A model generated the notes under the pieces. That model worked only from the letters and a program-made list of their open reading frames with translations, was not told the DNA's origin and searched no databases. A stretch of 64,000 bases of DNA from Escherichia coli (GTDB lineage: Bacteria > Pseudomonadota > Gammaproteobacteria > Enterobacterales > Enterobacteriaceae), in the NCBI RefSeq assembly GCF_044324875.1, contig NZ_CP172185.1. One strand, given 5' to 3'. Below, piece by piece: positions 6,637 through 45,607 of this stretch; the stretch's first letter is position 1; each line of letters starts with the position of its first letter. The translations under genes were made by a program, and so were the position numbers.

Positions 6637-6838
6637 CGAAATAATCTGGCAGCTATAAACGTTTATTTTTTTACTGTTTGTGATCTGCTTTCCGAACTTA
6701 TTAAAAAGTCTCCCGCTTCACGGAGGCTTTTGTTATTGTCCTTTGTGCTTCTCGTCAGTAAATCATCAGGGATGATGTGAAGATTAAATGTAAAACAATT
6801 GTTTTGCTATAACAATAAATTAACTGGGAGGTTTTATC

Positions 6839-7753
6839 ATGATTTCTGCGGCGACACTTAATTCAGAACTCATTAATAAAATCGCGCAGGATTTTGCGCA
6901 GGCGACCAGCCTTGCGGTTGTCGTGGTCAATATTCACGGCGATGAAATTTCCGAGCTGTTTAACTTCACTCCATTTTGTCAGATGATGCGGCAACACTCT
7001 CAGCTTAGCACTCGATGTCGCATGAGCGATCGTTGTGGGGGCCTGGAAGCCTCTAAATCCGATCAGCCTTGTATTTATCGCTGTCATGCCGGATTAACCG
7101 ATTTCTCTATTCCACTGGTAATCGCCGGACATTTAGTTGGTTTTGTATTGTGCGGGCAAGTTCGTCTGCGTAATGATGATGTCGATTTGGTCGATATTCT
7201 GAATGTCGATGATTGCTGGCAGGCAGATCCCGAATTACTTAATGAATTTCGCAAAGTCCCTGAGATGGATTACTCAAGAGTTATGGCCTCTGCTGATTTG
7301 TTGAAGTTGATTGTGGAAAATTGCCTCAAAAAACAACTCAATTTTGTTGTTATTAAAGAGAACAAATTTCAGTCAGATTCGGTGCGCCAGACTCGTGCGC
7401 CTAATCCCCACGACAATAAAATGAAAAAAGCTTTACGCTATATTGATGCGCATTTATCAGACGATTTGCGTCTGGAAGATGTCGCCTCGCACGTTTATCT
7501 AAGCCCTTATTATTTCAGCAAGTTATTTAAGAAATACCATGGGATTGGGTTTAATGCGTGGGTAAACCAACAACGGATGGCCAGCGCTCGTGAGTTACTG
7601 TGCCATAGTGACTGGAGCATCGCCAGCATTGCGCGTAATTTAGGTTTTTCGCAAACCAGTTATTTTTGCAAAGTTTTCCGTCAGACTTATCAGGTTACGC
7701 CGCAGGTGTATCGGCAGCAAGTGAATGAAAATGCGGCGATGGAAACGGTATAG
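6839..7753 (+). CDS. pocR: AraC-family regulator of pdu/cob
   Basis: 304 aa ORF with a C-terminal AraC-type HTH domain (…YLSPYYFSKLFKKYHGIGFNAW…); position between pduF and the cob leader. Confidence 0.85.
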   Translation: MISAATLNSELINKIAQDFAQATSLAVVVVNIHGDEISELFNFTPFCQMMRQHSQLSTRCRMSDRCGGLEASKSDQPCIYRCHAGLTDFSIPLVIAGHLVGFVLCGQVRLRNDDVDLVDILNVDDCWQADPELLNEFRKVPEMDYSRVMASADLLKLIVENCLKKQLNFVVIKENKFQSDSVRQTRAPNPHDNKMKKALRYIDAHLSDDLRLEDVASHVYLSPYYFSKLFKKYHGIGFNAWVNQQRMASARELLCHSDWSIASIARNLGFSQTSYFCKVFRQTYQVTPQVYRQQVNENAAMETV

Positions 7754-7859
7754 AGTAAATGCCAAAAAAAAGGAAGGTTTAAATAAACGCTGGAATGAAT
7801 AATTAACGTTATTTACGTGTTATGGGAAAAGTGAAATCAGCTCATAACATACGCTGACA

Positions 7860-8060
7860 GGTGTGGCACATTTGTGCCAGGGAAGAGGGTGAAAATCCCT
7901 CGCAGCCCCCGCTGCTGTAATGCTGACAAACCCGAAAATGCCACTGATCGCGAGATTGGGAAGGTCGGGTGAGGATGACGCTAAGCCAGAAGACCAGTCT
8001 GTCAGTCAATACCAACAACTTCGGTGGGAAGTGGGTTGCCCGGAAGCGTCCGGTAGAGTA
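7860..8060 (+). ncRNA. Cobalamin (B12) riboswitch-like leader
   Basis: Contains GTGCCAGGGAAGAGGGTGAAAATCCC, GCAGCCCCCGCTGCTGTAA, GCCACTG and a B12-box-like AAGCCAGAAGACCAGTC, all resembling conserved cobalamin-riboswitch segments as in the btuB and cob leaders. Confidence 0.7.
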
Positions 8061-8235
8061 CTGGCGCGTCTTTATACCCCTACCACCCTGAAAGGATCAG
8101 GGTATGGCGGCATCATTTAGTTCTTTCATCGCAGTGCCAACAGGCACCAGAGCTGCACTTAAGGTGTGGCAATCTTGTTTCATGGCTCATCAACCAGACC
8201 GCCATTACAGGAAACTAAGTGGAGGGCGAGGGACA

Positions 8236-8672
8236 TGAAAACGATAAGACCCGAATCGATAGCTCTTTTTTGCCTCTTATCTGGAGATGCGGACCTGGCG
8301 AAACAATTGGCTGAAATATTGCCAATAACTTGTTTTGTTGGTGAGGACTGGCAGCAAGATTTCCAGCCTCTTGACGGTGGGCCTGTGCAATCGTTATCAG
8401 ATGTGTATGGCGATTATTCAGTGCTGCTATTGATAGCAGCTGAAAGCGAGATATCCGTACCAGAATGGCTCGCTCATTCTGAAGGAACGACGGTAATTGT
8501 GATTGCAGAACACAATGCCCGTTTGCTGACTGGTCCGGCTGGTGGGGCTGTAGCATTGATCCATTATCTGAATGAAATCTGTCATTCCAGAGAAACCGCT
8601 GTCAATGACGCATTTTGTCGTACGTTAACACGAGGAAGTCTGGCTATTCCGCAATGCCATCTTCTTTCGTAA
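8236..8672 (+). CDS. Hypothetical protein downstream of the B12 riboswitch (possible remnant of a deleted cbi region)
   Basis: ORF track frame 8166..8672; internal ATG (MKTIRPES...) preceded by GGAGGG; no family recognised. Confidence 0.3.
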
Positions 8673-8805
8673 TGGATTGAGAATGCTGGATTTTTAATTA
8701 TATTACGCGCAGTATTAATCGCGTAAATGTTTTGCGGTCAGCAACGGTGGGGGATCCATTGTTCTGTTCAATGAATACCATCATACAAATGAATCAGGAG
8801 TCGGT

Positions 8806-9351
8806 ATGATGATTTTGGTGACGGGGGGCGCACGGAGCGGGAAGAGTCGCCACGCAGAGGCGCTTATTGGGGACTCTTCACAGGTTCTGTATATCGCCAC
8901 CTCGCAAATCCTTGATGATGAGATGGCTGCACGGATAGAACATCATCGGCAAGGCCGCCCGGCGCACTGGCGCACGGTGGAGCGCTGGCAACATCTTGAT
9001 GAATTAATTCATGCAGACATTAACCCGCATGAAGCTGTGTTGCTGGAATGCGTTACCACAATGGTGACTAATCTGTTGTTTGATTATGGCGGCGATAAAG
9101 ACCCTGATGAATGGGATTATCAGGCGATGGAACAGGCAATTAATGCTGAGATTCAGTTGTTGATTGCTGCCTGCCAACGTTGCCCCGCGAAGATTGTATT
9201 AGTGACTAACGAAGTGGGAATGGGGATTGTGCCGGAGAGTCGTCTGGCACGACATTTTCGTGATATTGCCGGGCGGGTAAATCAGCAGCTGGCCGCTGCG
9301 GCAAATGAAGTGTGGCTGGTGGTTTCGGGTATTGGAGTAAAAATCAAATGA
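8806..9351 (+). CDS. cobU: Adenosylcobinamide kinase / adenosylcobinamide-phosphate guanylyltransferase
   Basis: 181 aa [25 protein letters not shown]... with P-loop; matches E. coli CobU. Confidence 0.95.
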
Positions 9352-10091
9352 GTAAATTATTTTGGGCGATGCTCTCTTTTATTACGCGTCTGCCTGTGCC
9401 GCGTCGCTGGTCCCAGGGACTGGATTTCGAGCATTATTCTCGCGGTATTATTACTTTTCCTTTAATTGGTTTATTGCTTGGCGCGATTAGCGGGCTGGTC
9501 TTCATGGCGTTGCAGGCATGGTTTGGCGTACCACTGGCGGCACTGTTTAGCGTACTTGTGCTGGCGCTTATGACCGGGGGATTCCACCTGGACGGCCTCG
9601 CCGATACTTGTGATGGCGTATTTTCTGCACGTAGCCGCGATCGCATGTTGGAAATCATGCGTGATAGCCGTTTAGGTACCCACGGCGGTCTGGCATTGAT
9701 TTTTGTTGTACTGGCAAAGATTTTGGTGTTAAGCGAGTTGGCTTTGCGTGGCGAACCGATCCTTGCATCGCTGGCGGCAGCATGCGCGGTCAGCCGCGGG
9801 ACTGCCGCATTATTGATGTATCGTCATCGTTATGCCCGGGAAGAAGGGCTTGGCAATGTGTTCATTGGCAAAATTGATGGGCGACAAACCTGCGTCACAC
9901 TCGGTTTAGCCGCTATTTTTGCTGCTGTATTATTGCCAGGTATGCATGGTGTGGCTGCTATGGTGGTGACGATGGTGGCGATTTTCATCCTCGGTCAGCT
10001 TCTCAAACGTACGCTGGGCGGGCAAACCGGCGATACGCTGGGAGCAGCCATAGAGCTTGGTGAACTGGTCTTCCTGCTGGCACTGCTATAA
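9348..10091 (+). CDS. cobS: Cobalamin synthase
   Basis: Start [17 protein letters not shown]... overlapping the cobU stop (ATGA); polytopic membrane protein matching CobS. Confidence 0.95.
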
Positions 10092-10102
10092 AGAGACGTG
10101 AC

Positions 10103-11182
10103 ATGCAAACACTTGCCAATTTACTGAATACGATCCCTGCCATCGATCCTGCCGCTATGTCGCGTGCACAACGGCATATTGACGGGTTACTCAAACCTGT
10201 TGGTAGCCTGGGAAGGCTGGAGGCGCTTGGCGTACAACTGGCGGGAATGCCGGGGTTGAATGGCATACCGCATGTGGGCAAAAAAGCGGTACTGGTTATG
10301 TGTGCCGATCACGGCGTCTGGGAGGAAGGGGTCGCTATTTCCCCAAAAGAAGTCACAGCCATTCAGGCTGAAAATATGACCCGCGGAACAACCGGCGTGT
10401 GTGTGCTGGCAGCACAAGCGGGCGCTAACGTCCACGTAATTGATGTTGGTATTGATACTGCTGAGCCTATCCCCGGGCTTATCAACATGCGTGTCGCACG
10501 AGGTAGCGGCAATATTGCTTCAGCTCCGGCAATGAGTCGCCGTCAGGCTGAAACGTTGCTTTTGGACGTCATATGTTATACGCGGGATCTGGCAAAAAAC
10601 GGTGTCACGCTGTTTGGTGTAGGTGAATTGGGGATGGCAAACACGACACCGGCAGCGGCGATAGTGAGCACAATCACTGGCCGGGCTCCTGAAGAAGTGG
10701 TTGGGATTGGCGCAAACCTGCCGACAGATAAACTGGCTAATAAAATTGATGTTGTGCGACGGGCGATTACGTTGAATCAACCAAATCCGCAGGATGGCGT
10801 TGATGTCCTGGCAAAAGTGGGTGGATTTGATTTGGTCGGAATGGCTGCCGTGATGTTAGGCGCTGCGTCCTGCGGTTTACCGGTGTTGCTGGATGGATTT
10901 CTTTCTTATGCTGCTGCGCTCGCAGCCTGCCAGATGTCTCCTGCAATCAAACCGTATCTCATTCCTTCTCACCTGTCGGCAGAAAAAGGGGCGCGTATAG
11001 CGCTGTCACATTTGGGGCTGGAGCCTTATCTCAATATGGAGATGCGTTTAGGTGAGGGGAGTGGCGCAGCTCTGGCGATGCCCATCATCGAAGCTGCTTG
11101 TTCGATATACAACAACATGGGCGAACTTGCTGCCAGTAATATTGTTCTACCGGGGAATACGACTTCTGATTTGAACAGTTAA
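10103..11182 (+). CDS. cobT: Nicotinate-nucleotide--dimethylbenzimidazole phosphoribosyltransferase
   Basis: 359 aa [35 protein letters not shown]..., matching CobT. Confidence 0.95.
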
Positions 11183-12234: not shown

Positions 12235-12310
12235 TGGCTCCTCTGACTGGACTCGAACCAGTGACATACGGATTAACAGTCCGCCGTTCTACCGACTGAA
12301 CTACAGAGGA
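12235..12310 (-). tRNA. asnV: tRNA-Asn (anticodon GUU)
   Basis: Reverse complement reads TCCTCTGTAGTTCAGTCGGTAGAACGGCGGACTGTTAATCCG...GGTTCGAGTCCAGTCAGAGGAGCCA, the E. coli tRNA-Asn sequence; gene name assigned by position. Confidence 0.95.
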
Positions 12311-14642: not shown

Positions 14643-14718
14643 TGGCTCCTCTGACTGGACTCGAACCAGTGACATACGGATTAACAGTCCGCCGTTCTAC
14701 CGACTGAACTACAGAGGA
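14643..14718 (-). tRNA. asnU: tRNA-Asn (anticodon GUU)
   Basis: Same 76-nt tRNA-Asn sequence on the minus strand. Confidence 0.95.
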
Positions 14719-16466: not shown

Positions 16467-16542
16467 TCCTCTGTAGTTCAGTCGGTAGAACGGCGGACTG
16501 TTAATCCGTATGTCACTGGTTCGAGTCCAGTCAGAGGAGCCA
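16467..16542 (+). tRNA. asnW: tRNA-Asn (anticodon GUU)
   Basis: Plus-strand TCCTCTGTAGTTCAGTCGGTAGAACGGCGGACTGTTAATCCGTATGTCACTGGTTCGAGTCCAGTCAGAGGAGCCA. Confidence 0.95.
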
Positions 16543-31801: not shown

Positions 31802-31877
31802 TGGCTCCTCTGACTGGACTCGAACCAGTGACATACGGATTAACAGTCCGCCGTTCTACCGACTGAACTACAGAGGA
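31802..31877 (-). tRNA. asnT: tRNA-Asn (anticodon GUU)
   Basis: Fourth copy of the identical 76-nt tRNA-Asn sequence, minus strand. Confidence 0.95.
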
Positions 31878-32867: not shown

Positions 32868-32957
32868 CGGAGAGATGCCGGAGCGGCTGAACGGACCGGT
32901 CTCGAAAACCGGAGTGGGGGCAACTCCACCGGGGGTTCAAATCCCCCTCTCTCCGCC
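32868..32957 (+). tRNA. serU: tRNA-Ser (anticodon CGA)
   Basis: GGAGAGATGCCGGAGCGGCTGAACGGACCGGTCTCGAAAACCGGAGTGGGGGCAACTCCACCGGGGGTTCAAATCCCCCTCTCTCCGCCA: long-variable-arm class II tRNA with anticodon CGA. Confidence 0.9.
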
Positions 32958-37692: not shown

Positions 37693-37861
37693 AATGGCAG
37701 CCTCCACGTTGAGTATTGATAACTCACCACCGAGGCTTTCCACGACCATAATGGTGGTGAGACGTACAGGGGTGGAAATACCGGTCAACGTAGAACCCGG
37801 CCAGCCTTGCGGCTGCCCTGCACGCCCCACCATAATCTGAATGTGGCTGTGCTTCACGCAT

Positions 37862-37886
37862 AAAAAAACCGCCTGAGCGCGGTTGT
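37862..37886 (-). terminator. Intrinsic terminator on the minus strand upstream of rha
   Basis: Minus strand reads AACCGCGCTCAGGCGGTT followed by a U-run (plus strand TAAAAAAACCGCCTGAGCGCGGTT). Confidence 0.45.
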
Positions 37887-38501
37887 GCGCTACGTTTGAC
37901 TTCGGGTTTCCACGCCCGGCACCCGGTTTATGAGGTGCAGGTGCACTATAATTCCACCCGTACTGGTTTTCAATAGCTACATTCAACATTTTCTCTTACC
38001 TTTCATCACCGAAGTGAACTTTGTTGATGCGGTGCCAGGTGCCTCCAGGTGACGTTAACCAGTTAACAATTAACGCCGGATACAGAGAATCCACCCATAA
38101 CTCTGTTTTTGGTTTTAACTGTTCCACGTGCGATCAGCCGCATTCACCACATCACAAAATTCACTTTAAAAAGGGCGGCAGAGCAGTCACGGAGTAAAAC
38201 TGATACCGCAAAACGTCACCAGAAAATTGATAACAGATGGCGTTGCAGCGGGGTTGTCACTCAGGCGCATGGTCAACCTGACAACCCGGTGTCCTCAAGG
38301 GGAAGGGAACCCCGCCATGCTTACCGCCGCGCCATTTCGCGGAGTGCCACAACCGGAAGCGGACGGTCGACGAAAATTTAACGACAGGCTATATATGAAC
38401 CAGCTACCTCGCCGTGCGCTTTCGTGTTGTGTGCCTGCTTTTAACCACGTCAGGCGAGGTGGTATCCTCTGAGGGGTCTGTTACCCGAGAGGAAATTGGT
38501 T

Positions 38502-45215: not shown

Positions 45216-45451
45216 TTTTATGGATCACCTTTCTGATTGATTTCATATTGGCGAGGTGACGGGAGTTAAGTAGAATTGCTGCGGGTGCTTGAGGCTATCT
45301 GCCTCGGGCATGAACACCAACGGCAGATAGAGAAAAGCCCCAGTTAACATTATGCGTCCTGCAAGACGCTTAACATTAATCTGAGGCAGAATCTATGTCT
45401 AGCAAATGTAGGTTAGCCTCTTACGTGCCGAAAGGCAAGGAGAAGCAGGCT

Positions 45452-45607
45452 ATGAAGCAGCAAAAGGCGATGTTAGTCGCCCTGATCGTCATCTGTATTA
45501 CCGTCATTGTGACGGCACTGGTAACGAGGAAAGACCTCTGCGAGGTACGAATCCGAACCGGCCAGACGGAGGTCGCTGTCTTCACAGCTTACGAACCTGA
45601 GGAGTAA
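45452..45607 (+). CDS. hok: Hok/Gef-family type I toxin
   Basis: MKQQKAMLVALIVICITVIVTALVTRKDLCEVRIRTGQTEVAVFTAYEPEE, 51 aa, near-identical to chromosomal Hok/Gef peptides; the ORF track frame extends in-frame upstream to 45395. Confidence 0.8.
   Translation: MKQQKAMLVALIVICITVIVTALVTRKDLCEVRIRTGQTEVAVFTAYEPEE

What the first reader, a model, noticed from the sequence alone, without database searches (positions are those of the whole stretch)
7855..8672. Cobalamin riboswitch-like leader followed by an orphan ORF and cobUST, implying deletion of the cbi genes
In Salmonella the B12 riboswitch precedes the long cbi operon that ends in cobUST. Here a riboswitch-like leader with a B12-box is followed only by a 145-aa ORF of unknown family and then cobUST, consistent with an internal deletion that left the leader and the salvage genes. 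The intact pdu operon alongside means this strain probably depends on imported corrinoids while possibly still regulating salvage by B12.
Basis: partly seen in the sequence, partly recalled or inferred. Interest (0 to 1): 0.5.

Follow-up and report, generated by a model that had tools for sequence, protein, structure and literature searches.

The report
B12 riboswitch before gutted cob operon
This E. coli carries a genuine vitamin-B12 riboswitch, the counterpart of the Salmonella cob-operon leader, in front of an operon that two very old deletions reduced to two small leftover reading frames plus the salvage genes cobUST, and those leftovers have been kept open by selection across the genus Escherichia.

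Summary
A full-length cobalamin riboswitch lies at 7842-8016 (Rfam RF00174, 104.7 bits). A 145-codon ORF follows at 8235-8672 (the finding was one base off), then cobU, cobS and cobT.

The "orphan" ORF does have a family. It is the N-terminal domain of CbiG (41% identical to Salmonella CbiG residues 1-119) with a new tail. It starts at the ancestral cbiA ATG, directly behind the conserved ribosome-binding-site hairpin. It runs through a trace of the cbiF 3' end and stops in an ATGA overlap with the cbiG' start. The 133-nt spacer before cobU is the decayed 3' end of cbiP. So two deletions (cbiA..cbiF and cbiG..cbiP) gutted a Salmonella-type operon.

They are ancient. The same architecture occurs in E. 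albertii, E. marmotae, E. whittamii and E. fergusonii, and in about 12% of complete E. coli genomes, always together with pocR/pdu. The aptamer and expression platform are 92-94% conserved, and both small ORFs stay open (omega about 0.35). This holds even where cobUST is degraded or lost.

Most likely B12 represses translation of the 44-codon ORF, and through coupling and polarity represses cbiG' and partly cobUST. That regulation is inferred, not shown. Interest is moderate.

The parts
6839..7753 (+). pocR, the regulator of pdu and cob; left-hand context of the leader
   Evidence: NCBIfam NF047788 at 549 bits against a cut-off of 500. It is present in 641-644 of 5,426 E. coli genomes, matching the count (643-644) for the riboswitch-ORF region.
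7754..7841 (+). 88-nt interval between the pocR stop and the aptamer; a promoter is presumed here, or transcription reads through from pocR
   Evidence: No sigma-70-like site and no terminator-like site were found here. It is 82% conserved within Escherichia and not alignable to the much longer Salmonella interval.
7842..8016 (+). Cobalamin (AdoCbl) riboswitch aptamer, with the B12 box at 7983-8001
   Evidence: RF00174 at 104.7 bits, E 3.7e-25, full model. Orthologues in five other Escherichia lineages score 105-113 bits and Salmonella scores 107. Mean identity is 94% within Escherichia and 84% to Salmonella.
8017..8103 (+). Expression platform, ending in the RBS hairpin ACCCTGA (8085-8091) / loop AAGGA (8092-8096, Shine-Dalgarno) / TCAGGGT (8097-8103)
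   Evidence: It aligns with the Salmonella cob leader, and the hairpin and flanking CCCCTACCACCC are invariant in all seven sequences. The hairpin appears in both the MFE and centroid folds. Identity within Escherichia is 92%.
8104..8238 (+). 44-codon upstream ORF: the ancestral cbiA start codon plus a few codons, fused to a trace of the cbiF 3' end, with its stop TGA overlapping the next ATG (ATGA)
   Evidence: ATGGCGGCA is identical to the Salmonella cbiA start, and homology to Salmonella ends after 8112. The ORF is 44 codons with the ATGA overlap in 6 lineages and in all 8 E. coli sampled. E. fergusonii has 49 codons and a 20-nt overlap, as between Salmonella cbiF and cbiG. A cbiF 3' DNA profile hits the ORF body in three lineages at 9.6-21.9 bits, against at most 0 bits in 600 shuffles. 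The window's own copy is below the reporting threshold.
8221..8225 (+). GGAGG Shine-Dalgarno for the 145-codon ORF, 9 nt before its ATG
   Evidence: Read directly from the sequence. A purine-rich GGAGG/GGGAGG is present in the other Escherichia lineages in alignment A1.
8235..8672 (+). cbiG' ORF of 145 aa: the CbiG N-terminal domain (residues 1 to about 124) plus a new tail of about 20 residues; its last few codons lie in out-of-frame cbiP-derived DNA
   Evidence: NF004463 E 1e-17. tblastn to Salmonella CbiG 1-119 gives 41% identity. An enteric CbiG HMM covers positions 1-124, E 1e-21. The AF2 model (pLDDT 72.7) matches CbiG N-terminal domains at TM 0.60-0.66 and 3eeq. Omega is 0.28-0.62. It is transcribed in strain LF82 as LF82_328 (PMC4509574).
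8673..8805 (+). Spacer before cobU: the decayed last ~145 nt of cbiP; contains a promoter-like site TTGAGA-16-TATATT at 8677-8704
   Evidence: nhmmer with a profile of the last 240 nt of cbiP from 63 enterics aligns collinearly to about 8667-8802 (profile positions 97-237), with E from 3e-6 to 3e-3 across lineages. The promoter-like site matches 10 of 12 positions. This is the only upstream DNA that K-12-type strains keep next to IS5.
8806..9351 (+). cobU (adenosylcobinamide kinase / guanylyltransferase)
   Evidence: NF004469 at 245 bits against a cut-off of 161.
9348..10091 (+). cobS (cobalamin synthase)
   Evidence: TIGR00317 at 304 bits against a cut-off of 110.
10103..11182 (+). cobT (dimethylbenzimidazole phosphoribosyltransferase); followed by ldtA, as in Salmonella and Citrobacter
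   Evidence: NF000996 at 461 bits against a cut-off of 306. Synteny with ldtA is shown.

Best explanation
What it is (shown). This is the head and tail of a Salmonella-type cob operon, at the same chromosomal site (pdu-pocR-cob...cobUST-ldtA), after two old deletions. What survives, in order: the AdoCbl riboswitch, its RBS-sequestering hairpin and the cbiA start codon; a 44-codon ORF made of the cbiA start joined to a trace of the cbiF 3' end; a 145-codon ORF that is the N-terminal domain of cbiG with a new tail, overlapping the 44-codon ORF by ATGA; the decayed last ~145 nt of cbiP; and intact cobUST.

How it most likely works (inferred from the orthologous Salmonella leader). Without B12, the hairpin at 8085-8103 is opened and ribosomes start at the old cbiA ATG (8104). 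They terminate at the ATGA overlap and re-initiate on cbiG', which also has its own GGAGG. Continuous translation protects the transcript, so transcription reaches cobUST. With AdoCbl bound, the hairpin hides the Shine-Dalgarno sequence and the ATG. The roughly 570 nt of ORF then go untranslated, so cbiG' expression falls and read-through into cobUST falls by polarity. cobUST keeps a basal, riboswitch-independent promoter in the cbiP-derived spacer. That spacer is the only upstream DNA left in K-12-type strains.

What is selected. The open frames and the regulatory RNA are clearly under selection, and the cbiG' peptide is under moderate constraint. I therefore take cbiG' to have some B12-repressed role of its own, in addition to passing regulation on to cobUST.
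For: Riboswitch: 104.7 bits over the full model. Orthologues in all Escherichia lineages tested and in Salmonella score 105-113 bits.

Orthology of the leader: the alignment runs through the invariant hairpin and ATGGCGGCA and then stops. Identity to Salmonella is 84% in the aptamer, 73% in the platform, 100% over the ATG plus 8 nt, and 25% afterwards.

Remnants, in operon order: cbiA start; cbiF 3' trace; cbiG codons 1-124; cbiP 3' end. In more than 50 cbi-complete enteric loci, cbiP abuts cobU. ldtA follows cobT in Salmonella, Citrobacter and Pseudocitrobacter as it does here.

Age: the same architecture is found in E. albertii, E. marmotae, E. whittamii, strain E69 and E. fergusonii.

Selection on the RNA: the aptamer is 94% and the platform 92% identical within the genus, against 72-82% for the neighbouring weakly constrained segments.

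Selection on the frames: under neutral substitution alone, the 145-codon frame survives a divergence of 0.2 with probability about 0.05-0.07, and 0.35-0.45 with probability about 0.004-0.013. The 44-codon frame survives with probability about 0.3 and 0.1-0.16. Yet both are open in 7 of 7 lineages and in 8 of 8 E. coli sampled, with the ATGA overlap conserved in all except E. fergusonii, which has a 20-nt overlap.

Selection on the peptide: omega is 0.28-0.62. Three independent pairs give bootstrap 95% intervals of 0.17-0.64. Neutral survivors have a median of 0.7-0.8 and a 5th percentile of about 0.5. Within E. coli, piN/piS is 0.37.

Translation signals: the Shine-Dalgarno AAGGA sits in the hairpin loop, GGAGG precedes cbiG', and AGGAG precedes cobU.

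Transcription: LF82_328 shows RPKM 13-17 in culture (PMC4509574).

Background from memory, not checked here: in Salmonella the cob leader represses cbiA translation through this hairpin in response to AdoCbl (Richter-Dahlfors & Andersson 1992; Ravnum & Andersson 2001; Nahvi et al. 2004). K-12 cobUST has its own promoters (Lawrence & Roth 1995).
Against: No experiment here shows ligand binding, B12-dependent repression, coupling or polarity.

No promoter was found in the 88 nt upstream of the aptamer. The approximately 190 nt of 5' leader and the promoter region of Salmonella are not conserved, so even the transcription start is unknown.

cobUST probably has its own promoter, so riboswitch control of salvage may be small.

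E. fergusonii lacks cobUST altogether. E. albertii has a multiply disrupted cobU and no cobT. Both keep the riboswitch and both ORFs, so control of cobUST cannot be the only selected output.

The residues invariant in all true CbiGs (GATGIAVR, DPAVVVIDE, SGHxGGAN) are deleted or changed, so cbiG' cannot have the CbiG activity, and its role is unknown.

Some omega values (0.57-0.62) fall inside the neutral-survivor range.

The cbiF trace is weak, and for the window's own copy it is below the reporting threshold. The second junction is only located to within about 50 nt.

About 88% of E. coli have lost the whole element together with pdu, so it is dispensable in that background.
Confidence: 0.62

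Rival explanations
1. The regulated product that matters is the cbiG' protein itself. On this view it is an exapted CbiG N-terminal domain that serves B12-dependent propanediol metabolism when B12 is scarce, for example by handling or sequestering corrinoids or by partnering a Pdu or B12-uptake component. cobUST control would be incidental.
For: The riboswitch, the 44-codon ORF and cbiG' stay intact in E. fergusonii (no cobUST) and in E. albertii (dead cobU, no cobT). Constraint is concentrated in the domain core: residues 1-45 and 85-114 have omega of about 0.15-0.35, while the tail is near neutral. A strong GGAGG has been acquired. The predicted fold is a complete CbiG N-terminal domain. In E. 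coli the element is co-inherited strictly with pocR/pdu. It is transcribed in LF82.
Against: The motifs conserved in all CbiGs are destroyed. No stand-alone relatives exist outside Escherichia: only 32 hits among 1.84 billion representatives. Omega of about 0.35 is weak constraint. C-terminal length variants (136 aa) and N-terminally deleted versions circulate in E. coli and Shigella. No function can be proposed from sequence. The age of cobUST loss in E. fergusonii and E. albertii is unknown, and albertii cobS is still at omega 0.03.
Confidence: 0.25
2. The two ORFs matter only as translated spacers. Selection keeps them open so that the riboswitch's translational decision is passed on to downstream transcription by preventing Rho-dependent termination. 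Their peptide sequences would be irrelevant.
For: Frame and length are conserved much better than sequence: 44 codons with the ATGA overlap, and a fixed stop position at 144-145 codons. Omega for the 44-codon ORF ranges from 0.15 to 0.96. The tail of cbiG' is nearly neutral. A natural in-frame fusion of the two ORFs exists (P0001).
Against: Omega in the cbiG' core lies below the neutral-survivor distribution. E. fergusonii has nothing from the cob operon downstream to protect.
Confidence: 0.1
3. An inert relic: the riboswitch and both ORFs are decaying leftovers that simply have not yet been erased.
For: About 88% of E. coli have lost them. cbiG' is only about 41% identical to real CbiGs, while CobU is 82% identical to its Salmonella counterpart. 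The catalytic motifs are gone.
Against: The aptamer and platform are 92-94% conserved across species whose synonymous divergence is 0.3-0.5, and up to about 1.3 to E. fergusonii. The joint neutral probability of both frames surviving in all lineages is far below 1e-6 from substitutions alone. Omega is below 1, with bootstrap intervals that exclude 1.
Confidence: 0.03

Closest known systems
Salmonella enterica cob operon leader (AdoCbl riboswitch with RBS hairpin upstream of cbiA)
   Same: It is an orthologue. It has the same position after pocR, the same aptamer (84% identity, 107 vs 105 bits), the same B12 box, an identical RBS hairpin and an identical first 9 nt of cbiA. It sits at the same chromosomal site, with ldtA after cobT.
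   Different: In Salmonella it controls a 20-gene operon, cbiA-cbiP-cobUST. Here it controls a 44-codon fusion ORF, a truncated cbiG and (perhaps) cobUST. Escherichia also lacks the approximately 190-nt 5' part of the Salmonella leader and its promoter region.
E. coli btuB leader (the well-studied cobalamin riboswitch of E. coli K-12)
   Same: Same Rfam family. By established knowledge it uses the same logic, translational repression through an RBS-sequestering structure with secondary effects on the transcript.
   Different: It is a different locus with a different regulated gene. This second riboswitch exists only in the roughly 12% of E. coli that carry pdu/pocR. No comparison with btuB was run here.
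CbiG, cobalt-precorrin-5A hydrolase (PDB 3eeq homologue; Pfam CbiG_N, CbiG_mid and CbiG_C)
   Same: Residues 1 to about 124 are homologous to the CbiG N-terminal domain, and the predicted fold matches.
   Different: It lacks the middle and C-terminal domains. It scores 64 bits against a cut-off of 546 and has no Pfam hit. It has lost motifs invariant in enteric CbiGs. It is confined to Escherichia.
E. coli K-12 cobUST locus (IS5, a 'cobalamin biosynthesis protein' pseudogene, then cobUST; Lawrence & Roth 1995)
   Same: Same cobUST genes and the same cbiP-derived spacer. The K-12 pseudogene is the 3' end of this cbiG' ORF (window 8501-8672) at about 92% identity.
   Different: K-12-type strains lost pdu, pocR, the riboswitch, the 44-codon ORF and two thirds of cbiG'. 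A third class of about 200 genomes has a deletion joining pduV' to cbiG' at window 8332.
Translationally coupled upstream ORFs and leader ORFs that transmit a regulatory signal to downstream genes
   Same: A short ORF whose initiation is the regulated step, with its stop overlapping the next start (ATGA).
   Different: Here the short ORF is a deletion product, cbiA' fused to 'cbiF, rather than a dedicated leader peptide. Coupling is inferred, not shown.

Membership tests
Cobalamin riboswitch (Rfam RF00174) | Covariance-model score at or above the curated gathering threshold, over the whole model | tested here: met
   104.7 bits against 31.5, E 3.7e-25, model positions 1-189 of 189.
Cobalamin riboswitch (Rfam RF00174) | Conserved B12 box in the 3' part of the aptamer | tested here: met
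   AAGCCAGAAGACCAGTCTG at 7983-8001 aligns to the consensus AGCCAGGAGACCuGCC.
Cobalamin riboswitch (Rfam RF00174) | Lies in the 5' leader of cobalamin-related genes, followed by an expression platform | tested here: met
   It is followed by the RBS hairpin at 8085-8103, the cbiA-derived ATG at 8104, cbiG' and cobUST.
Cobalamin riboswitch (Rfam RF00174) | Binds adenosylcobalamin and changes gene expression | not testable with these tools
   This needs in-line probing or ITC, and reporter fusions.
Salmonella-type cob operon leader (orthology) | Collinear alignment from the aptamer through the RBS hairpin to the cbiA start codon, downstream of pocR | tested here: met
   Alignment A1 shows the hairpin and ATGGCGGCA invariant, with homology ending after 8112.
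Salmonella-type cob operon (cbiA-cbiP-cobUST) | Complete set of cbi biosynthetic genes between the leader and cobU | tested here: not met
   Only fragments of cbiA, cbiF, cbiG and cbiP remain. No cbiP DNA is present in any complete E. coli genome.
CbiG (cobalt-precorrin-5A hydrolase) | Score above the NCBIfam equivalog cut-off | tested here: not met
   NF004463 scores 64.4 bits against a cut-off of 546, and only profile positions 1-125 of 351 are matched.
CbiG (cobalt-precorrin-5A hydrolase) | Three-domain architecture: CbiG_N, CbiG_mid and CbiG_C | tested here: not met
   No Pfam domain is detected even at E <= 10. The protein ends about 20 residues after the N-terminal domain.
CbiG (cobalt-precorrin-5A hydrolase) | Motifs invariant among enteric CbiGs (GATGIAVR..LAP, DPAVVVIDE, SGHxGGAN) | tested here: not met
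   The first two carry 4-aa and 3-aa deletions, and the third reads TGPAGGAV.
CbiG N-terminal domain (fold) | Homology and predicted fold of the N-terminal alpha/beta domain | tested here: met
   The enteric CbiG HMM covers positions 1-124 at E 1e-21. Profile A3 hits 3eeq_A at E 3.6e-11. AFDB50 hits outside Escherichia are nearly all CbiG, at TM 0.60-0.66 and rmsd 2.3-3.5 over about 120 columns. The model is of moderate confidence (pLDDT 72.7).
cobUST nucleotide-loop assembly (corrinoid salvage) genes | CobU, CobS and CobT each above curated cut-offs and full length | tested here: met
   245 vs 161, 304 vs 110 and 461 vs 306 bits.

The most novel reading that the evidence does not exclude
The 145-aa cbiG' product is a functional, Escherichia-specific small protein exapted from the CbiG N-terminal domain. 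It would be expressed only when B12 is scarce, under riboswitch control, and it would serve the B12-dependent Pdu lifestyle. It would be retained for that role even after the salvage genes were lost in E. fergusonii and E. albertii. This would be a case of a biosynthetic-enzyme fragment and its riboswitch surviving the operon's destruction because the pair acquired a new job.
Probability: 0.3. Interest if true: 0.6.

Novelty: new variant of a known kind. Interest (0 to 1): 0.4.

Why it matters
First, it shows that pdu-positive E. coli (including AIEC LF82 and EPEC E2348/69) carry a second cobalamin riboswitch besides btuB. Its regulon is a three-part relic, which makes it a compact natural system for asking what a riboswitch controls once most of its operon is gone.

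Second, the ordered remnants (cbiA', 'cbiF, cbiG', 'cbiP), the orthologous leader and the shared pocR and ldtA flanks show that an Escherichia ancestor held a complete Salmonella-type cob operon at this very site, next to pdu. This bears directly on the Lawrence-Roth 'loss and reacquisition' account of B12 synthesis in enteric bacteria. The simplest reading is differential loss.

Third, two leftover reading frames have been kept open for the whole history of the genus. That gives a testable example of either exaptation of an enzyme fragment or selection for translation as such.

Fourth, and practically: the ORF is annotated variously as 'hypothetical protein', 'cobalamin biosynthesis protein' or 'CbiG'. 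It should not be counted as B12 biosynthetic capacity in pathway or metagenome profiling.

Tried and rejected
(1) Single recent deletion in this strain. Rejected: the same junctions occur in five other Escherichia lineages.

(2) Does the ORF tail or the spacer encode cbiP or cbiG in frame? tblastn and protein HMMs gave only weak hits (E 0.1-1). Only a DNA profile of the cbiP 3' end gave a collinear match.

(3) A weak CbiG C-terminal HMM hit in the third frame upstream of the ORF (E 0.3-1). Treated as noise.

(4) The apparent similarity of the 44-codon ORF's 'RHYRK' to the CbiF C-terminus 'HEYRK'. Rejected as positional homology: it lies 30 nt from the corresponding place and in another frame.

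(5) An intrinsic terminator or attenuator inside the 44-codon ORF (hairpin 8152-8170 plus a T-run). The folds are weak (-5 to -10 kcal/mol; z from +0.04 to -1.6 in the five lineages that have the hairpin). It is absent in E. fergusonii, and the count of such sites equals the shuffle expectation. Not supported.

(6) The inverted repeat TTACGCG-N10-CGCGTAA in the spacer. It is not conserved across species.

(7) Stand-alone CbiG_N proteins elsewhere as a known family. An exhaustive HMMER search found only Escherichia copies and a few full or fragmentary CbiGs.

(8) A riboswitch upstream of cobU in other enteric genera that lack cbiP next to cobU, or that keep only cbiP (Kluyvera, Trabulsiella, Kosakonia cowanii, Yokenella, Franconibacter). 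None was found within 10 kb.

(9) A full cbi operon in any complete E. coli genome. None.

(10) Literature. Four full-text searches found no description of this remnant architecture. They found only the LF82 'CbiG' transcript entry. The Lawrence & Roth papers could not be opened, so what I say about them is from memory.
Full report
OBSERVATION. The window is E. coli: 7754-8805 is 96-98% identical to RefSeq E. coli chromosomes. An Rfam scan of the whole window places a full-length Cobalamin riboswitch (RF00174) at 7842-8016 on the + strand. It scores 104.7 bits against a gathering score of 31.5, with E 3.7e-25 and model positions 1-189 of 189, and the B12 box lies at 7983-8001. The ORF named in the finding starts at 8235, not 8236, and ends at 8672 (145 aa). 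cobU (8806-9351), cobS (9348-10091), cobT (10103-11182) and pocR (6839-7753) all exceed their curated NCBIfam cut-offs. pduA, pduB and pduF lie to the left. PGAP annotates the same riboswitch and a 'hypothetical protein' in related genomes.

WHAT THE 'ORPHAN' ORF IS. It has no Pfam hit. However, its residues 1-118 match the enteric CbiG equivalog NF004463 (E 1e-17, 64 bits against a cut-off of 546). Salmonella CbiG residues 1-119 align to window 8235-8570 at 41% identity (E 4e-21). An HMM built from 50 enteric CbiGs covers positions 1-124 (E 1e-21). An alignment-based AlphaFold model (pLDDT 72.7) matches CbiG N-terminal domains almost exclusively in AFDB50 once Escherichia copies are set aside (TM 0.60-0.66, rmsd 2.3-3.5 over about 120 columns). 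Among solved structures it has its highest TM-score to the CbiG homologue 3eeq (TMq 0.53), and the sequence profile hits 3eeq_A at E 3.6e-11. The ORF is therefore the N-terminal domain of CbiG plus a new tail of about 20 residues. It is not a CbiG enzyme. The middle and C-terminal domains are missing. The motifs invariant in every enteric CbiG (GATGIAVR..LAP, DPAVVVIDE, SGHxGGAN) carry 4- and 3-residue deletions or substitutions.

I aligned the pocR-to-ORF interval of six Escherichia lineages with the Salmonella pocR-cbiA interval. The Escherichia leader is orthologous to the Salmonella cob leader from the aptamer, through an invariant hairpin, to ATGGCGGCA. The hairpin is ACCCTGA / AAGGA / TCAGGGT at window 8085-8103, and ATGGCGGCA is the start of Salmonella cbiA. 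Identity to Salmonella is 84% in the aptamer, 73% in the platform, 100% over the ATG plus 8 nt, and 25% (random) afterwards. From that ATG (8104) a 44-codon frame runs to a TGA at 8236-8238, overlapping the ATG of the cbiG' ORF (ATGA). The first of its residues still resemble CbiA: MAASFSSFIAVPTGT against MAARHHAFILAGTGS. A DNA profile of the last 200 nt of cbiF, with all cbiG sequence excluded, hits the body of this small ORF collinearly in three lineages at 21.9, 15.3 and 9.6 bits. The best of 600 shuffles scored 0 bits, and the window's own copy fell below the reporting threshold. In E. fergusonii the small ORF is 49 codons and overlaps the next ORF by 20 nt, exactly as Salmonella cbiF overlaps cbiG.

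THE SPACER BEFORE cobU. In every cbi-complete enteric locus fetched (more than 50 loci, spanning Salmonella, Citrobacter, Klebsiella, Raoultella, Kosakonia, Buttiauxella and others), cbiP ends at the cobU start. A DNA profile of the last 240 nt of cbiP aligns collinearly with window 8667-8802 (profile positions 97-237). E values range from 3e-6 to 3e-3 across lineages, with the core ATTACGCGCAGTATTAATCGC. The 133-nt spacer is therefore the decayed 3' end of cbiP. It contains a promoter-like site, TTGAGA-16-TATATT, at 8677-8704 (10 of 12 positions).

RECONSTRUCTION. The order is: leader and cbiA start | deletion 1 (cbiA to about 110 nt before the end of cbiF) | cbiF 3' trace | cbiG codons 1 to about 124 | deletion 2 (mid-cbiG to about 145 nt before the end of cbiP; junction located to within about 50 nt) | cbiP 3' trace | cobUST | ldtA. 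ldtA also follows cobT directly in Salmonella, Citrobacter and Pseudocitrobacter, and pocR precedes the leader in Salmonella. The complete operon therefore once sat at this very site.

AGE AND DISTRIBUTION. The same architecture is present in E. coli strain E69, a divergent lineage whose CobU is only 92% identical to the window's. It is also present in E. whittamii, E. marmotae, E. albertii and E. fergusonii. In each it comprises a riboswitch of 105-113 bits, the small ORF and a cbiG' ORF of 144-156 codons. The shared cbiG' tail motif (FC..L.RG) shows that deletion 2 predates the E. fergusonii split. Within E. coli, 643-644 of 5,426 complete genomes carry the full element, and the count for pocR (641-644) is the same. 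About 200 more genomes have a deletion joining pduV' to cbiG' at window 8332. The rest, including K-12, keep only 8501-8805 next to IS5, annotated as a 'cobalamin biosynthesis protein' pseudogene. No complete E. coli genome has cbiP. Relatives of the ORF outside Escherichia and Shigella do not exist as a stand-alone family: an exhaustive search found 32 hits among 1.84 billion representatives. Other enteric genera that lack cbiP next to cobU, or keep only cbiP, have no riboswitch within 10 kb upstream.

SELECTION. Mean pairwise identity within Escherichia is 94% for the aptamer and 92% for the platform. It is 82% for the pocR-aptamer interval and 82% for the small ORF. It is 80-87% for the first 114 codons of cbiG', 72% for its tail and 80% for the spacer. 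Synonymous divergence in neighbouring genes is 0.3-0.5 among the five closer lineages and above 1.2 to E. fergusonii. For cbiG', omega is 0.28-0.62, against 0.02-0.08 for pocR and pduF and 0.11-0.18 for cobU. Three phylogenetically independent pairs give bootstrap 95% intervals of 0.17-0.64. Residues 1-45 and 85-114 are the most constrained, and the tail is close to neutral. A neutral substitution-only simulation gives the null expectations. The 145-codon frame survives with probability 0.05-0.07 at d = 0.2 and 0.004-0.013 at d = 0.35-0.45. The 44-codon frame survives with probability about 0.3 and 0.10-0.16. Surviving frames have an NG86 omega with a median of 0.7-0.8 and a 5th percentile of about 0.5. 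Both frames are nevertheless open in all seven lineages. They are also open in all eight diverse E. coli examined, each with the ATGA overlap, and piN/piS there is 0.37. So the RNA element is under strong selection, the reading frames are under clear selection to stay open, and the cbiG' peptide is under moderate selection.

A COMPLICATION. In E. fergusonii (two assemblies) cobUST is absent. cbiG' is followed by a REP-like element and then ldtA. In E. albertii (six contexts) cobU has lost its ATG and carries several deletions and many stops, and cobT is deleted. cobS, however, remains at omega 0.03. Both species keep the riboswitch (113 bits) and both ORFs. Control of cobUST therefore cannot be the only reason the element is kept.

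MECHANISM (inferred). By orthology with the Salmonella leader, AdoCbl binding should close the RBS hairpin and block initiation at the cbiA ATG. (The Salmonella mechanism is established knowledge recalled from memory and was not re-verified here.) In this locus that ATG opens the 44-codon ORF. Its ATGA overlap suggests termination and re-initiation on cbiG', which also has its own GGAGG at 8221-8225. When the roughly 570 nt are not translated, polarity should lower read-through into cobUST. cobUST nevertheless has a candidate promoter of its own in the cbiP-derived spacer, the only upstream DNA K-12 retains. RNA-seq of strain LF82 shows the ORF (LF82_328, annotated 'CbiG') transcribed at RPKM 13-17. 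That is comparable to pocR (7-11) and well above most pdu genes in plain culture (PMC4509574). No promoter was identified in the 88 nt upstream of the aptamer and no terminator after pocR, so co-transcription with pocR is possible. None of the regulatory steps is demonstrated.

COMPARISON AND NOVELTY. The riboswitch is a member of RF00174 and an orthologue of a classic, well-studied leader. Its presence is already recorded by automatic annotation. The loss of cbi genes from E. coli is textbook (Lawrence & Roth 1995 and 1996; titles confirmed, contents from memory). I did not find the following described in four literature searches: the ordered four-gene remnant structure; the 44-codon cbiA'-'cbiF ORF coupled to cbiG'; the genus-wide age of the deletions; and the evidence that the leftovers are maintained by selection even where cobUST is gone. 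I therefore rate it a new variant of a known kind, of moderate interest.

LIMITS. The cbiF trace and the second junction rest on weak DNA-profile matches. Omega estimates use pairwise NG86 on seven lineages. Some pairs fall within the neutral-survivor range. Recombination is evident from the heterogeneous dS (cobS of E. albertii 1.0-1.2, against 0.45-0.56 for cbiG') and could distort divergence-based arguments. The time since cobUST was lost in E. fergusonii and E. albertii is unknown.

Noticed in passing
window 6695-6778 (-): The enterobacterial sRNA STnc230 (RF02075, 74.8 bits) lies between pduF and pocR on the opposite strand. The same element sits at the same place in Salmonella and in the other Escherichia loci.
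   Followed up: partly
window 12238-12310 (-), 14646-14718 (-), 16467-16539 (+), 31805-31877 (-): There are four identical tRNA hits (72.6 bits each). RefSeq annotates tRNA-Asn at the positions in related E. coli genomes that correspond to the first two. The fourth lies about 15 kb from the third, which suggests an island inserted at an asn tRNA. A further tRNA is at 32869-32955 (+).
   Followed up: no
window 37750-38224 (-): A cluster of prophage-type small RNAs: C4 antisense RNA (37750-37837), isrK (37862-37938) and DicF (38173-38224). This indicates a prophage or remnant.
   Followed up: no
window 45283-45457 (+): A sok antitoxin RNA (RF01794, 114.9 bits), implying a hok/sok-type toxin-antitoxin locus.
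   Followed up: no
protein P0062 (E. coli, 374 aa): In at least one E. coli assembly a deletion fuses pocR in frame to the 3' part of cobU. It removes the riboswitch, both small ORFs and the cobU 5' end.
   Followed up: partly
protein P0001 (188 aa, one Logan assembly): A natural variant in which the 44-codon ORF and cbiG' are fused into a single reading frame (MAASFSS...RKLWRARGMKTIKPES...).
   Followed up: partly
L023 and L081 (Escherichia sp. MOD1-EC7003): This genome has the native remnant locus (cbiG' tail plus cobU, 94% identical to the window's CobU). On another contig it has at least cbiH through cbiP followed by cobU, with a CobU only 81% identical (the contig ends inside cbiH). This is either re-acquisition of B12 synthesis by horizontal transfer or assembly contamination.
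   Followed up: no
L100 (E. coli LH85-a) and about 200 other E. coli genomes; junction at window 8332: A third class of E. coli locus. One deletion joins a truncated pduV directly to the cbiG' ORF at window 8332, removing pduA-U, pduF, pocR and the riboswitch. PGAP still calls a 111-aa 'hypothetical protein' there.
   Followed up: partly
L085 8349-9092 (E. albertii cobS): cobS stays under strong purifying selection (omega 0.03) in E. albertii even though cobU is a pseudogene and cobT is deleted. Its dS to other Escherichia (1.0-1.2) is two to three times that of the adjacent pocR and cbiG' genes, which suggests a different history for that segment.
   Followed up: partly
L084 13.9-20.9 kb (E. 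fergusonii): Downstream of ldtA, on the opposite strand, E. fergusonii carries a glycyl-radical-enzyme microcompartment cluster (PFL-like enzyme, radical-SAM activase, BMC shell proteins, PTAC). A second microcompartment locus therefore lies within a few kb of pdu.
   Followed up: no
window 8501-8805 vs K-12 (L002 4001-4296): The cbiG'-tail and spacer DNA of K-12-type strains is only about 92% identical to this window, while pdu+ strains are 96-98% identical to it. That is a larger gap than the 96-98% seen among the pdu+ genomes, hinting at old, diverged pdu+ and pdu- haplotypes or at recombination.
   Followed up: no
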